From positions 516,119 to 580,118 of the forward strand of contig JBNZDD010013622.1 of the NCBI GenBank assembly GCA_050575255.1: 64,000 bases of DNA, in the 5' to 3' direction. The DNA is from Harriotta raleighana. Taxonomy: Eukaryota. The notes under the pieces were generated by a model. The model was not told where the DNA came from. It searched no databases and worked only from the letters and a program-made list of their open reading frames with translations. Shown here one piece after another: positions 19,301 through 28,300 of the stretch; position 1 is the stretch's first letter; every line of letters starts with the position of its first letter. The translations under genes and the position numbers were made by a program.

Positions 19301-22300
19301 ATGAACCCAGACCTGAGGCGGGAGCGGGAGAACGCCAGCTTCGTAACCGAGGCCCTCACACACATCCTGGATGGAGGCGCCGAGAAGACGCGGCGCCGGA
19401 GAGAGATCGGTGAGTAGCCGGCGGCGGCTAGAAAAGTGAAAGCTGCGGGAAATGCCGGGAGGCCTACCTGTCCCCCTCCCCCCCTTCTCCTCCTCCTCCC
19501 TGTCCTCCTCCTCCTCTCTGTCCCCCTCCTCCTCACTGTCCCTTTCCTTCCCGTCCCCCTCTCCCCCTCCTCATTCCTGACCCCCCCTCCCTATCCCCTC
19601 CCCCCTCCTCCTCCCTGTCCTCCTCCTCCCTGTTCCCCTCTCCCCCTCCTCCTTCCCGAAGTCCTTTAAATGACGGTATTTACAGTGTGTTTGTGGTATC
19701 CCCCCCCCCCCACCTGTAAACTCAGTGGTTAGAGCACTCGCCTCGCAAGCGAGAGAGACCTGGGTTCGATTCCCGGCAGATCACGTCATGTCAGTTCAAG
19801 GCGAAACCGTGGTGAAGTTTCTTTACTCCCCACACACACTCACATACACAACAAGAACAACAACTTGCATTTACATAGCGCCCTCCACGCCGGACAGCGT
19901 CTCAGAGCGCTTCACAATAGGGGAGCCCGAGGTCAAAACCAGGGGGAGGGAGAAGGTGACTTGAAAATGGGAAATGTTCGGGGGACAAGGGGGAGGCCAG
20001 ACCGCTGTGAGGAGAGGAGTGAGCTGTGAGGAGAGAGGAGGAGGTTAGAGAGGTAGGGTTGAGGGTGCAGAGGATTGGAGGGATTTAACAGCATCCACTC
20101 AGTGACAGGGAGCCATGCAGTCTGGCGAGGACTGGGGTAATCAGGGAGCGAAGGTCAGGTTCAGGTTCGGGTGAGAATGCGGGCGGCAGAGTTCTGTATG
20201 AGCTGGATTTTGTGAATGGTGGCGGAGGGGAGACCAGCGAGGAGGAGGGCTTTGAAATAGTCCAGCTGAGAGCTGACAAAGGCATGGACCAAGATTTCGG
20301 CAACTTTTGGCAAAAACCCACATTTCAATCCACGACTGGTTGTGGGACCCTGCTGTGACCAATTCGCCACCGCGTTTCGCCCACAAAACACACAGTCACT
20401 ACATATTTCTCCCCCAATTCCTCCCTCCGTAGGTTGCAGATCATCCACAACTCTGCAGCCCGTGTCCTCTCCTGCACCAGGCTCAGTGACCCTATCACGC
20501 TCATCCTCCACAGGCTTCCCATCACACAGAAGATTCAAGATCCTGATCTTCACTTTCAAAGCCTTCCACAGCTCTGCGATTGGCTAATCCCCTACCAACT
20601 TGCCCACTTTCTCTCCCTCCCCAACTCTTCCCCCTCTCCCACTCTCCTTCCCCCTCCCCCTACCTCCGACCTCCCCCCCACCACCCCCCCCACTCAGGTC
20701 CCGACCTGACTGTTCAACGCTTTGGGATTTCCTCCCGACATGAAAGGCACTATACAGGTTGTTGTTGCTCAGTGGGCTTCACATCCCCTGTCTCAACCAC
20801 CCCACCGTTAGCCAACGAGCCTTCTGCCACTGCTATATCAAATGCGGGGATTGTTATTGTTATGTATCCTGTTTTCAACCAGGTGGCTATTCAGCTCAAA
20901 ACAAGACCTTACATGCAAAATAGCTGCCTTCATCTCTGCTGCTGTGTGCAGTGTATATTTAATTTAATGTTTTATTTAAAATGATCTGAGTTCTGTAGTC
21001 ACCTGGAACAAAAGGCTGTAACTGAATGATCCCCATTTCAAACATACAGTGAGTGAAATCTTACAGCCTTGGGGTGTGCTCTTGCCTCTACATGCTGATC
21101 TTACTGTTTGTTTCTCTGTGCTTTAGAAGCCCTGGTGCTGAATGACCCTGAGTTCCAGCACGAGGACCTGAACTTCCTGTCCCGCAGTGAGCGCTATGAC
21201 ACTGCCGTTAGGAAGAGTGCGCTGATGGTGAAGAAGATCCGCGAACATGCCATCTCCAATCCAGAAGAAATCATATGGTTCAAGAGGTGCGTACTCTTCA
21301 TTCATAAACCTGCCTTTTCACATCTAGACGTCTCAAAGCGATTCACAGAATATACTGTAAAGTGAATTGTCTGTATATTTGTGATCGAAACACAGCAGTG
21401 AATTGCACACAACAACGTCCCACAAAGTCGTGGATTGAAATGGCCAAATTATTATTGGGGTTTTTTCTTGGATGAAAACTATCAGGTGCATGGAGTAAGG
21501 AGACTTGCCCAAGGTTTTGCCCTGCTGGAATCAAACCCAGATCTCTCACTTTTGAAGCACTCTAACCTGAGCTATGGGACTCCGCAAAAACTTTCAAATT
21601 AAGTAATGAATTTAAGAATGGTCCACAATTCTGTTCAATCTTAAATTCTAAAACAATATGGTCTTCCAGGCTAATATGCACCAGTGACTTTTATGATCCC
21701 CCATTTAATGTTGAATTTAGCAGCTGATTTCTGCTGTGGTCCACACCTCACTGAGAACTGGTTTAACGCTGCTTGCCCAGCTTACTGCTAAGAGACAGAG
21801 AGGCTTTTATTTAATCAATCTGGGCTGCTTTCCCAGGCCCAGGGGTTGAAAGAACAGCAGCAGCCAACTCAAGCTACCACCCATCTCCCTTTAAGCTTTT
21901 GTGTTACATAATACATGCAGTGTGTTTTGTGTTTGGAATATTTCTCTTTTCTTCCCCCCTTTATTGTGACACTGATATAATTGTAATGGGTTTCCTTCTT
22001 CTGACTGTGTCAGCACCGCATGTTTAAACCTCACTCCTGCACTTTCCTGTGATCCAACCTCGCACACATTTCTCTTCTCCCATTGCAAATGTACTCATTT
22101 GCATTATACCCTCCTCTGGAGTTAACTCTGCCAACGTCCTTGATGTCTGATTGCAAATAGACATCAATCTTTTGTTTACCATCAGCTGGTGGTTGACTTT
22201 ATGGTTTCAGAATTGCAATGAGGCACATTTTGTGAATAAATGAATAGTAATCAATACATCTGAATTGGTGTTGTTGGGAAGACTGTTGGGCAGGTATAAC

Positions 22301-25300: not shown

Positions 25301-28300
25301 TACCAGGTCGGTCTTTTGTTGCAGTGCTAGAACATTGGACAATTGGACAAGTGTTTTGGCTACTGAGCTGAGTTTCAGCTGGGGTTGGGGCCTTACTGCC
25401 TCTCTTGGTCTCGCCCTCTCCCCCCCCACAACCTGGCATTAAGAGACTGAAGTACCGCTTGAGAGCTTGCAGTGTTTTCTTTATCTGACGTATGCCACCA
25501 GGTGCTAATGGCACCTCAACAAACTCCTAGTTGATTCAAACAACAGCAACGAAATTACATTTTTATAGCACCTTTCTTGTCGGGAGGACGTCCCAAGGCA
25601 CTGGATGGTCAGTGTTTCAGACACAAGCTGGGGTCAGGATCTGGGAGGGTGGAGGGAAGTGAGGGGAAGTGGGGTGACTGATGGCATGGTCGAAGAAAAG
25701 GGTCTTGAGGCAGGATTTGAAGGAGGATAGAGAGGGGGCGAGGTGGAGGGATTGCAGGACGGAATTCCAGAGGTTGGGGGCAGAGTGACTGATGGCTTGC
25801 CTGCCGATGGTGGGGACATGGAGAGGCCGGAGCCCGCTGAGCAGAAGGAGAGGACTGGATGGTATGGGCAATGTGTCAAAATGGCCTTCACTAGCCTGCT
25901 TGTGACAAGAGTGTGAGGATTGCTACTCCCTGACCTTTCTGTAGAAATTTACAGATTTTGGGCTCACTTCCTTTTCTGTTGGATCTCTACTTGTTCTCTG
26001 CATCCAGCTTCTCTGCTTCTCTCTATTCCTCTGTTTGCTGTACCTCCATTAATTGCTTTCACAGCCATATTTGCCCACAAATATACAGTCGGTCTTCCCT
26101 GCTTTCCTTCCCCCTGCTCCAACCCCTCCCCTTGCCATCTTTCCCCCTTTTCTCCCCTGGCTGTTTGTGGGACAGTGGTTAGAGCACTCGTCTTACAAGC
26201 CTTGCAAGCATGAGACCTGTGTTCGAATCCAGGCAGATCAGGGCGAAACCTTGGACAAGTTTCCTTACTCCACATGCCTAATAATAATCCCTCCAAAAAA
26301 AAATCCACAATAATAAAATTGGTCATTTCAATCCATGACTGTTTGTGGGACACTGCTGTGCGCAATTGGCTGCCGCATTCTGCCCACAAATATACAGTCA
26401 ATTCACTTAACAGTATATTCTGTGAAGCGCTTTGGGACGTTGATAAGATGTGAAAAGCGCTATATCAAATGCAAGGATTATTATTATTATTACTGCTGTA
26501 CGCAATTTGGCTGCTGCGTTTCGCCCACAAATATACAGTCAATTTTTCCTGCTTCCTTCCCCCGACCCTTCCCATCCTGCTACTGATCCCTACTTGACTG
26601 TACAAATCCTTGGGACGTGCTCTCGACATGAAAGGCACTATATAAATGTAATTTTGATTGATTGATTGATATTAATAATCTGCTAAACTGCCTATTGATG
26701 GAATCACTTTGCTAATTTCTATGGTATATTTTTTGTTCTTTTTTGAATTGGAAGCCTTTTTTTCTCTCTCTCTCTGGGAGAGGGATTGTGGGATGGAGTT
26801 CCAAACAGGGGACAGAGTATCTGAAAGCCTGACCACTTTGGTGGAGCAGGCACTGGCCTGTTCCATGAAACCTGCCCAGTGTCTGCCGAGGGAGTGGGCA
26901 AGATGGTTAGAGAGGAGGAAGACCATGGAGGGCTATCCAACTGAGCACGAGAATCTTAATCTGAATCCTCCTGGTTAAGAGGGGTGTCAGTGAAACCAGG
27001 CGAGGGTGGGGATAGCATAGGATTAAAAGCAGCAACAGGATGCTTGTTGTAGTGTTACCCATAGTCCTCTCATCATTGAGGGAACTTGCGCAAAGGTTCT
27101 TTAGGTGAAAAGATTGTGCGAGGTAAGAGTTTTGTAACAGAAAATGAGAAGAACATACAGGTACTTCGTCTCATTGTGTACCATTTATAATGGAATATAT
27201 AAGGCTAATCTCTGATTGCTTTGCACTAACTGATGAAATCCCTGCTACGATTGATTGAAATAGTTGTTGCATGCCAGCTGTTGCTCAGGGCTCTAATGAA
27301 CCTTTCTCTCTGTGATCTTCTGTCTGATCCTATTCCTGGCAATCCTCCCACCTCTGTCTCTACAGCTATGTGCACCGTGGACGCCCTGAGCCCCTGGATC
27401 TCCACTTGGGCATGTTCCTACCCACCATCCTGAACCAGGCTACTCCTGAGCAGCAAGATCGTTTCTTCATGCCAGCTTGGAACCTGCAGATCATTGGCAC
27501 TTATGCCCAGACAGAGATGGGCCATGGTATAGTATAGAAAGCAGTAGAGTAGAGTTCAAGTCCAAATTCAGTTACCCTCCTAGTTCTATGCTGTAATGTG
27601 CTACCTGTGGTTTTGTTTAGCTTCCCATCCTATGATGAGTCTCCAGCCAGAAAATCACCAACCTCTTGCTTCAGTTTCTTTGATAGTTCAGTCGGTTAAT
27701 TCAGTGTCTCACTCAGTCACACAGACCAGAAATGTCCCAGGATCTAAACCTGGCTTCTGGGGAGTCAATTGAAGCAACATGAAGGGATGTTACCATTTGG
27801 TTTTAATATCCCAGGCGAGAAGGGGAAATCTACCAAGGATTCCCCACCTTGATTGTCTCCCAGCGACCTCTGATAGTGCTGGATTGTAATGGTGACGAAC
27901 TAATCTTAGTTCTGTGTTGTCCTCAGGCACATTCCTGCGAGGATTGGAGACAACTGCGACGTACGACCCTTCAACTCAGGAGTTTGTTCTCAACAGTCCA
28001 ACTGTGACCTCCATCAAGTGGTGGCCTGGAGGATGTGAGTGAGCCTCATTGCAGGAGGCACATGCTGGGGGGTGAGGAGAAGTGGGGGTGGGTGTTATGG
28101 CAGTGTGTAGGGGGAAAGTGTGTGAGGGGTATGGCTCTTCTTCCTAGTGTATTGAGACGTTTGTTCTGGAATGGATGTAGTTATCTCGAGTCTTTGATGA
28201 GCAGCTTGTGTATCTTGTTTTACAGTGGGGAAGACTTCAAACCATGCTATTGTGTTGGCTCAACTGTACACCCAGGGCCAATGCAGGGGGCTTCATGCCT

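What the first reader, a model, noticed from the sequence alone, without database searches (positions are those of the whole stretch)
21792..27615. Candidate competing long-range RNA duplexes controlling mutually exclusive ACOX1 exons 3a/3b
Seen in sequence: the intron just after exon 3a (25295-25412) is complementary, in colinear antiparallel order, to two distant elements. Duplex 1 pairs with the intron just after exon 3b: caaagctaccaggt (25295-25308) with acctgtggttttg (27603-27615); ttgcagtgctagaac (25319-25333) with gttctatgctgtaa (27583-27596); ttggac-aa-ttggac (25335-25348) with gttcaa-gtccaa (27554-27565); ctactg (25360-25365) with cagtag (27542-27547). It would loop out 3b and bring the 3a donor near the exon 4 acceptor. 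Duplex 2 pairs with intron 2: gagacagagaggc (21792-21804) with gcctctct-tg-gtctc (25398-25412); aggccc (21835-21840) with gggcct (25388-25393); gttgaaa (21845-21851) with tttcagc (25373-25379); cagcagcagccaa (21855-21867) with ttggctactgagctg (25356-25370). It would loop out 3a. The two duplexes overlap at 25360-25365. Many non-canonical pairs are G-U on the sense strand, which points to RNA-level pairing, and the segments are not SINE sequence. Established: competing pairings drive mutually exclusive splicing in Dscam1, 14-3-3 and Ate1. Inference: ACOX1 uses a central docking region with upstream and downstream selectors. I do not recall this being described for ACOX1 but cannot check the literature.
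Basis: partly seen in the sequence, partly recalled or inferred. Interest (0 to 1): 0.85.

Follow-up and report, generated by a model that had tools for sequence, protein, structure and literature searches.

The report
Candidate RNA duplex biasing ACOX1 exons
In a vertebrate fat-oxidation gene (ACOX1) that uses one of two alternative exons, the intron stretches right after the two exons are unusually complementary and may fold the RNA so that the second exon is likely looped out, but the proposed second, competing pairing scores no better than chance and neither pairing has been checked in other species.

Summary
All 16 quoted segments are where stated, around ACOX1 exons 3a/3b. The two duplexes are unequal. 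Duplex 1 (after the 3a donor × after the 3b donor) is unusual: −56.7 kcal/mol, 3 of 5000 shuffles as good, the only exceptional one of 15 splice-site-anchored pairs, unmatched by 328 donor-like control pairs, and −21 kcal/mol after opening local structure. However, hand-picked decoy pairs from the same introns pass the same shuffle test, so only its position singles it out (about 1% after correction). Duplex 2 is at chance level once accessibility and search space are counted, its upstream arm lies in a locally duplicated segment, and it leaves duplex 1's core free. The G-U argument fails against controls. Both exons shift the frame, so NMD can hide double inclusion. Best reading: a one-sided duplex that likely biases choice toward 3a (0.42), nearly tied with chance (0.40); the competing switch gets 0.12. 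No orthologous intron was obtained, so conservation is untested. No ACOX1 structure was found in print or in earlier scan notes; similar layouts were noted in invertebrate genes.

The parts
21127..21286 (+). ACOX1 exon 2 (constitutive)
   Evidence: Translation and splice junctions; PDB hits to ACOX1, E 5e-21
21314..21545 (+). Interspersed repeat copy, inverted relative to 26212-26457; the pair flanks exon 3a
   Evidence: 78% identity over 246 nt on the minus strand; duplex -276 kcal/mol
21701..22234 (+).
   Evidence: G000:C13622:509042-509697, about 75% identity, no ACOX1 exons beside it
21792..21867 (+).
   Evidence: net binding -10.0, 63 of 150 shuffles as good; rank 31 of 187
25125..25282 (+). 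Exon 3a, 158 nt (2 mod 3); short acceptor zone (AG-free 31 nt); donor ACG|GTTAGT
   Evidence: homologous to the human 3a peptide in the Hatje supplement
25289..25376 (+). 5' arm of duplex 1 (core 25295-25348), starting 7-13 nt after the 3a donor; single copy, not a recognisable repeat
   Evidence: core alone -40.6 kcal/mol, 0 of 1000 shuffles
25322..25365 (+). Local hairpin that uses the same nucleotides as duplex 1; predicted competitor of duplex 1
   Evidence: window 25315-25380 z -3.4, 1 of 200 shuffles; 13 of 328 donor-like sites fold as well
25352..25412 (+). 3' arm of duplex 2; mostly outside the core of duplex 1
   Evidence: Helix list; chance-level binding
26212..26457 (-). Inverted partner of the repeat at 21314-21545
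27268..27365 (+). Exon 3b acceptor region: TGCATG at 27268, branch-point-like CTCTAAT at 27291, AG-free zone of 75 nt
   Evidence: Motif scans; human 3a/3b AG-free zones are 24/59 nt (PMC5224494). TGCATG as Rbfox motif from PMC12772994
27366..27526 (+). Exon 3b, 161 nt (2 mod 3); donor ATG|GTATAG
   Evidence: 47 of 53 residues identical to human 3b by my count
27537..27621 (+). 3' arm of duplex 1, from 11 nt after the 3b donor; weak local structure, single copy, not a recognisable repeat
27927..28034 (+). ACOX1 exon 4 (constitutive)

Best explanation
The intron just after exon 3a is complementary over about 60 base pairs to the intron just after exon 3b, and this one duplex likely forms in part of the transcripts, where it is predicted to loop out exon 3b and would bias the choice toward 3a, while the upstream duplex is probably a chance match. 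Shown: the complementarity, its position at both donors, the frame-shifting exon lengths, the stop codon on double inclusion, and the short-versus-long acceptor zones. Predicted by folding: duplex 1 closes a 2.2 kb loop that holds exon 3b, brings position 25295 (13 nt after the 3a donor) to within 311 nt of the exon 4 acceptor, and covers intron 3b from 11 nt after its donor; to form it must open the local hairpin 25322-25365, which is transcribed first. Inferred: hairpin kept means 3b stays exposed and wins through its long pyrimidine tract and distant branch point; duplex 1 formed means 3a is joined to exon 4. Inferred: exclusivity itself comes from acceptor competition plus nonsense-mediated decay of frame-shifted products, so the duplex would tune the 3a/3b ratio, not enforce exclusivity.
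For: Anchored duplex -56.7 kcal/mol against shuffle mean -36.4, 3 of 5000 as good. Only exceptional pair of 15 splice-site-anchored pairs, z -4.7. 0 of 328 donor-like control pairs reach z -4 and 4 reach -3. Composition-adjusted rank 1 of 4123 windows in the 64 kb, reciprocal rank 2 of 4127; rank 1 of 3606 window pairs in the three introns. Best window in intron 3b, 0 of 100 best-of-window shuffles. Net binding after opening local folds -21.0, 0 of 150; ensemble difference about -17.8. Its z is about that of a planted perfect 26-bp stem. Both arms single-copy and repeat-free. Exons are 158 and 161 nt and double inclusion stops in 3b. Acceptor zones of 31 and 75 nt mirror human 24 and 59 nt, with opposite U2AF effects (PMC5224494 passages). 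Human ACOX1 shows more skipping of both exons when ILF2, a partner of dsRNA-binding proteins, is depleted (10.1101/2022.06.15.495552 passages; indirect). One-sided ratio-tuning structures exist in SCN9A and ATE1 R2/R5.
Against: No conservation, covariation or RNA data. Margins are thin: runners-up z -4.36 and -4.18, -3.98, -3.93, and the grid was in register for duplex 1. 6 of 7 decoy pairs picked after the fact also beat all 300 shuffles, two with net binding -20.0. By raw energy 29 of 4123 windows are as good. With the first, shorter windows it was not in the top 8 of 828 and 5th site among 2979 windows. The whole-intron test gives 64 of 150, and a simplified local model does not rank it first in its own intron. 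Its single stems are modest, -13 to -17 kcal/mol. The 3' arm has a stronger net partner in a G-rich repeat at 25648 (-30.8; z only -1.6). The scan views very many exon clusters, so 1% events will be handed on. The hairpin is modest evidence (13 of 328).
Confidence: 0.42

Rival explanations
1. Both duplexes are chance complementarity. 3a/3b choice is set by splice-site strength and proteins (U2AF-dependent acceptor competition, possibly Rbfox at 27268), and NMD removes double-inclusion and double-skipping products.
For: Decoys pass the same tests. Nulls are not exceeded. The G-U bias is a selection artefact. Frame-shifting lengths and a premature stop. Acceptor asymmetry matches human. 75% of annotated human mutually exclusive clusters have lengths not divisible by three, and competing structures are said to be usually not conserved over long distances (PMC5740500 passages).
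Against: Does not explain why the best of 3606 pairs falls on the two donors, about a 1% event for this cassette. NMD was not the main factor for exclusivity in SCN genes (PMC12772994 abstract).
Confidence: 0.4
2. One reading: duplex 1 and duplex 2 both form and exclude each other (by partial overlap or because the crossing pseudoknot is unfavourable), looping out 3b or 3a, as in srp or ATE1.
For: The order upstream arm, two adjacent middle arms, downstream arm is the srp layout (PMC4691838 and PMC6071210 passages). Duplex 2 is colinear over 47 pairs, 5th site among 2979 windows after composition adjustment, and its outer 13-bp stem is -22.1 kcal/mol, in the range of the SCN elements (-15 to -23.6). 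The plain duplex test has little power for 12-18 bp stems.
Against: Net binding -10.0 (63 of 150) and -8.6 with the whole middle region (86 of 150); a clean 15-bp stem scores that poorly in 8% of simulations. Rank 31 of 187; best grid rank 406 of 3606, on a grid out of register for it. The upstream arm lies in a locally duplicated segment of unknown polarity.
Confidence: 0.12
3. Duplex 1 favours 3a, and the counter-structure that loops out 3a is not duplex 2 but the inverted repeat pair 21314-21545 / 26212-26457, a lineage-specific addition.
For: 78% identity over 246 nt in inverted orientation across exon 3a; -276 kcal/mol, far above duplex 2.
Against: Repeats cover about 31% of sampled sequence, so inverted pairs across an exon are common; each copy has other partners nearby; it cannot explain exclusivity in species without these insertions.
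Confidence: 0.06

Closest known systems
Drosophila serpent exon 4.1/4.2 bidirectional RNA pairing (PMC4691838, passages read; PMC6071210, passages read)
   Same: Two-exon cluster; one predicted pair loops out each exon; the two pairs cross as a pseudoknot instead of sharing one site.
   Different: In srp both pairs are conserved and tested by mutation; here only one pair is statistically supported and nothing is tested across species.
Human ATE1 exons 7a/7b, R1/R3/R4 and R2/R5 (PMC7797038, passages and section 14 read)
   Same: Vertebrate tandem exon pair; middle-intron element paired with upstream or downstream partners; R2/R5 loops out the second exon and tunes the ratio, as proposed for duplex 1.
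   Different: R1 and R4 are similar to each other, lie at the acceptors and compete for the same R3. Here the two outer arms are unrelated, duplex 1 lies at the donors, and the overlap is marginal.
SCN9A/SCN2A/3A/5A ISRE1-ISRE2 RNA bridge (PMC12772994, abstract and second part of Results read)
   Same: One structure beginning 10-15 nt after the second exon's donor promotes its skipping and changes the ratio without breaking exclusivity; reported as far as elephant shark.
   Different: Both ISREs lie downstream of exon 5b and do not loop it out; duplex 1 spans the second exon. The ISREs have conservation, proximity-ligation and mutational support.
U2AF-regulated duplicated exons with unequal polypyrimidine tracts, human ACOX1 among them (PMC5224494, passages read)
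   Same: Short AG-free zone before 3a and long one before 3b in both species (24/59 nt human, 31/75 nt here).
   Different: Acts at the acceptors through proteins; the passages read say nothing of long-range pairing in ACOX1.

Membership tests
Tandem duplicated mutually exclusive exons | Two homologous exons of like length and phase between constitutive exons, each keeping the frame alone | tested here: met
   54% identity over 46 residues; 158 and 161 nt, each open with exons 2 and 4; human pair annotated as such
Tandem duplicated mutually exclusive exons | Transcripts contain one or the other exon in this organism | not testable with these tools
   No RNA data for this organism were examined
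Docking site / selector competition (Dscam1, 14-3-3, ATE1 R1/R3/R4) | Two or more selectors pair with the same docking nucleotides | tested here: not met
   Core of duplex 1 (25295-25348) is outside duplex 2; overlap is 6 nt as quoted or 15 of 61 MFE pairs in short end helices
Docking site / selector competition (Dscam1, 14-3-3, ATE1 R1/R3/R4) | Selectors resemble each other | tested here: not met
   Upstream versus downstream arm: 1179 of 2000 shuffles align as well
Bidirectional pairing (srp type) | Crossing arrangement, one pair looping out each exon | tested here: met
   Coordinates and helix lists
Bidirectional pairing (srp type) | Both pairs stronger than chance | tested here: not met
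   Duplex 1 yes, duplex 2 no; power for short stems is limited
Any functional long-range intronic pairing (PCCR, ISRE, ATE1 R2/R5) | Complementarity above background in unique intronic sequence | tested here: met
   Duplex 1 only, with the caveats
Any functional long-range intronic pairing (PCCR, ISRE, ATE1 R2/R5) | Conservation of both arms and compensatory substitutions | not tested
   No orthologous intron obtained; metagenome scan with exon 2 found no relative
Any functional long-range intronic pairing (PCCR, ISRE, ATE1 R2/R5) | Splicing changes on disruption and is rescued by compensation; proximity-ligation support | not testable with these tools
   Needs minigene or RIC-seq/PARIS/KARR-seq data
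Frameshift/NMD-enforced exclusivity | [quoted passage not shown] | tested here: met
   Both are 2 mod 3; stop inside 3b on double inclusion; double skipping shifts the frame. Decay itself not tested

The most novel reading that the evidence does not exclude
ACOX1 exon 3a/3b choice is set by an ancient vertebrate RNA switch: the 3a-proximal element toggles between a local hairpin and a donor-to-donor duplex that loops out 3b (its distal arm a relic of the hairpin arm copied when the exon duplicated), opposed by an upstream pairing that loops out 3a. If conserved to mammals, antisense oligonucleotides could shift ACOX1a/ACOX1b and so peroxisomal substrate range.
Probability: 0.12. Interest if true: 0.72.

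Novelty: new member of a known kind. Interest (0 to 1): 0.4.

Why it matters
ACOX1a and ACOX1b differ only in exon 3 and differ in substrates: only 1b was active on C24-CoA, and 1a was about ten times more active on DC12-CoA; the ratio is tissue-specific and changes with diet (PMC11178532 passages) and after kidney injury (10.1101/2024.10.24.620070 passage). Few vertebrate exon pairs have a mapped RNA-structure control (ATE1 and SCN in the papers read). A confirmed duplex would add a metabolic gene, with a donor-to-donor geometry and a testable hairpin competitor. The kind of mechanism is known, so the gain is a new case and a possible handle on the isoform ratio, not a new principle.

Tried and rejected
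Cross-species data: the run search listed 16 runs, 13 holding part of the stretch, no RNA holder listed; the shares were not examined further and are no evidence. A metagenome scan with the exon 2 peptide matched 591 pattern stretches, none confirmed. The second copy of the upstream arm looked like a possible ACOX1 paralog; no ACOX1 exon was found in the 30 kb upstream (0 of 6 exon peptides hit). The copy pairs at chance level (-46.5) and differs at 7 of 39 paired positions against 116 of 495 elsewhere, which cannot be read either way because the segments were chosen for pairing. Rfam: 8 matches at E<=5 in 7.3 kb, all far below gathering scores. Origin of the arms from degraded repeats: not found. 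Direct homology between the two donor-proximal regions as a duplication relic: 838 of 2000 shuffles as good, unsupported. G-U strand asymmetry: rejected as evidence. A stronger 3a-spanning pair (22775-22863 x 26826-26891, -76.3): one arm is an old repeat and net binding is -11.6, 9 of 60. Positive control: ATE_C loci were found but no duplicated exon 7 pair was located in 40 kb and 20 kb upstream, so the tests were calibrated only by simulation. The first scan script timed out with no output. My C scorer lacks terminal mismatches and limits loops to 14 nt; it disagrees with ViennaRNA windows and is reported as a result against. Literature: ten searches gave no paper describing an RNA structure in ACOX1 introns. 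Supplements held for PMC8052449 (5 files), PMC10691357 (1 file) and PMC4174434 (2 files searched, one further file not searchable) have no ACOX1; those of PMC5740500 list ACOX1 only for protein mapping and expression in the rows shown; those of PMC10573301 could not be read. The full PCCR and RIC-seq tables may not be among the files held and could list ACOX1; subscription journals are not covered.

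
Full report
Setting. The window holds ACOX1 of a vertebrate with a 1.10 Gb genome; the exon 2 peptide matches human and rat ACOX1 structures. That it is a cartilaginous fish is my guess and was not tested. Exon 3a is 25125-25282 (158 nt) and exon 3b 27366-27526 (161 nt); each is open with exons 2 and 4, double inclusion stops inside 3b and double skipping shifts the frame. The human pair is annotated as mutually exclusive, 161 nt each (PMC5740500 supplement rows).

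The observation. All 16 segments are at the stated coordinates, and ViennaRNA finds both duplexes. With composition adjustment each was the 5th site among 2979 windows. A simplified local scorer found the best partner of the middle region no better than shuffles in intron 3b (62, 46, 48, 127 of 200 at four penalties) or intron 2 (13, 6, 17, 5 of 60), and neither duplex was first there.

Duplex 1. With fixed windows placed at the two donors (25288-25377 and 27534-27628, chosen after reading the finding) it gives -56.7 against -36.4, 3 of 5000. Of 15 pairs among six splice-site-anchored windows only this one stands out (z -4.7; the other 14 lie between -0.9 and +0.9). None of 328 pairs of donor-like sites in repeat-poor genome sequence reaches z -4, and 4 reach -3 (25 shuffles each). 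It ranks 1 of 4123 windows and, reciprocally, 2 of 4127 after composition adjustment, though 29 and 23 windows are as good in raw energy. It is first of 3606 window pairs in the three introns on a grid in register with it, with runners-up close behind. Net binding after opening local folds is -21.0, 0 of 150. Against this, 6 of 7 decoy pairs picked from these scans also beat all 300 shuffles, and two have net binding of -20.0. So passing a shuffle test is not special; the position at both donors is, at roughly 1% for this cassette (3/5000 times 15 anchors, my arithmetic). Across a scan of many exon clusters such events will occur, so I put duplex 1 at about even odds of being functional.

Duplex 2. 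Net binding is -10.0 (63 of 150 shuffles) and -8.6 with the whole middle region (86 of 150). It ranks 31 of 187 intron-2 windows. In cofolds only its outer 13-bp stem survives. Simulation shows that the plain duplex test misses most 12-18 bp stems, while the net test leaves a clean 15-bp stem as weak as duplex 2 in 8% and a 12-bp stem in 17% of trials, so it is disfavoured, not excluded. Its upstream arm lies in a 530-nt segment with one more copy found, at about 75% identity, past the SRP68 stop codon, with no ACOX1 exons beside it; which copy is the source is unknown.

Competition. The core of duplex 1 (25295-25348, -40.6, 0 of 1000) lies outside duplex 2; they share only short end helices. 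The outer arms are not alike, unlike ATE1 R1 and R4 (PMC7797038 section 14). The layout is the crossing one of serpent (PMC4691838 and PMC6071210 passages). What does compete for duplex 1's nucleotides is a local hairpin, 25322-25365; 13 of 328 donor-like sites fold as well, so this is modest support. The G-U argument fails: 7 of 8 decoys show the same strand asymmetry, and strand-neutral alignment gives an unremarkable 8 to 2.

Other controls on exon choice. The AG-free zone is 31 nt before 3a and 75 nt before 3b, the latter with a branch-point-like site at 27291 and TGCATG at 27268. Human values are 24 and 59 nt, with 3a activated and 3b repressed by U2AF (PMC5224494 passages). Depleting ILF2 moderately raised skipping of both human ACOX1 exons (10.1101/2022.06.15.495552 passages), an indirect hint that dsRNA-binding complexes act here.

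Mechanism. I commit to a one-sided model (0.42): duplex 1 likely loops out 3b and biases toward 3a, in competition with the local hairpin, while acceptor competition and NMD supply exclusivity. This is how ATE1 R2/R5 and the SCN9A elements behave, tuning ratio without enforcing exclusivity (PMC7797038 passages; PMC12772994 Results part 2). Chance for both duplexes is nearly as likely (0.40). Complementarity, positions and frames are shown; folding in vivo and every splicing effect are inferred.

What is open. No orthologous intron was obtained, so conservation and covariation, the decisive evidence in every known case, are untested (one search found no relative; one search listed no RNA holder). 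A within-genome positive control on ATE1 was not located.

Novelty. Ten searches and the supplements held for four papers showed no ACOX1 intron structure; PMC10573301 was seen only as a listing and its supplements could not be read, PMC8052449, PMC10691357 and PMC4174434 only as listings plus supplements, PMC9741552 as two passages on protein residues. The full PCCR and RIC-seq tables may lie outside what I could see. Earlier scan notes hold nothing on ACOX1. If real, this is a new member of a known kind, in a gene whose isoforms differ in substrates (PMC11178532 passages). Interest 0.40.

Noticed in passing
window 21701-22234 and G000:C13622:509042-509697 (L005, L007): A 530-nt piece of ACOX1 intron 2 has one other copy found in the genome, about 1.3 kb past the SRP68 stop codon, at about 75% identity, with 21861-21900 identical between the copies. 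Direction of copying and any function unknown.
   Followed up: partly
window 21314-21545 and 26212-26457: Inverted repeat pair (78%, 246 nt, -276 kcal/mol) spanning exon 3a; a candidate for editing, skipping or back-splicing. Four shorter inverted pairs in the same introns.
   Followed up: partly
window 22636-22727 with 27532-27623: A second partner of the downstream arm in intron 2 (-51.5, 0 of 300 shuffles, net -20.0); it would loop out both exons. Treated as a decoy.
   Followed up: partly
window 25900-25991 with 27277-27364: Pairing (-48.2, 0 of 300, net -20.0) that would cover the pyrimidine tract of exon 3b. Picked after the fact; treated as a decoy but worth including in an ortholog alignment.
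   Followed up: partly
window 27683-27766: Second site in intron 3b that pairs with the 3a-proximal arm (-53.6, 1 of 300; net -13.9, 4 of 60); single copy.
   Followed up: partly
window 21124-21129: Tandem acceptor TAGAAG before exon 2, which could give a 3-nt alternative start.
   Followed up: no
G000:C13660 about 604665-604898 (minus) and G000:C13365 about 128448-128606 (plus), loci L054, L055: Two separate loci match the ATE_C family and are 69% identical over 61 residues, suggesting a second, diverged ATE1-like gene.
   Followed up: no
window 27268-27297: TGCATG about 25 nt upstream of a branch-point-like CTCTAAT some 70 nt before the 3b acceptor.
   Followed up: partly
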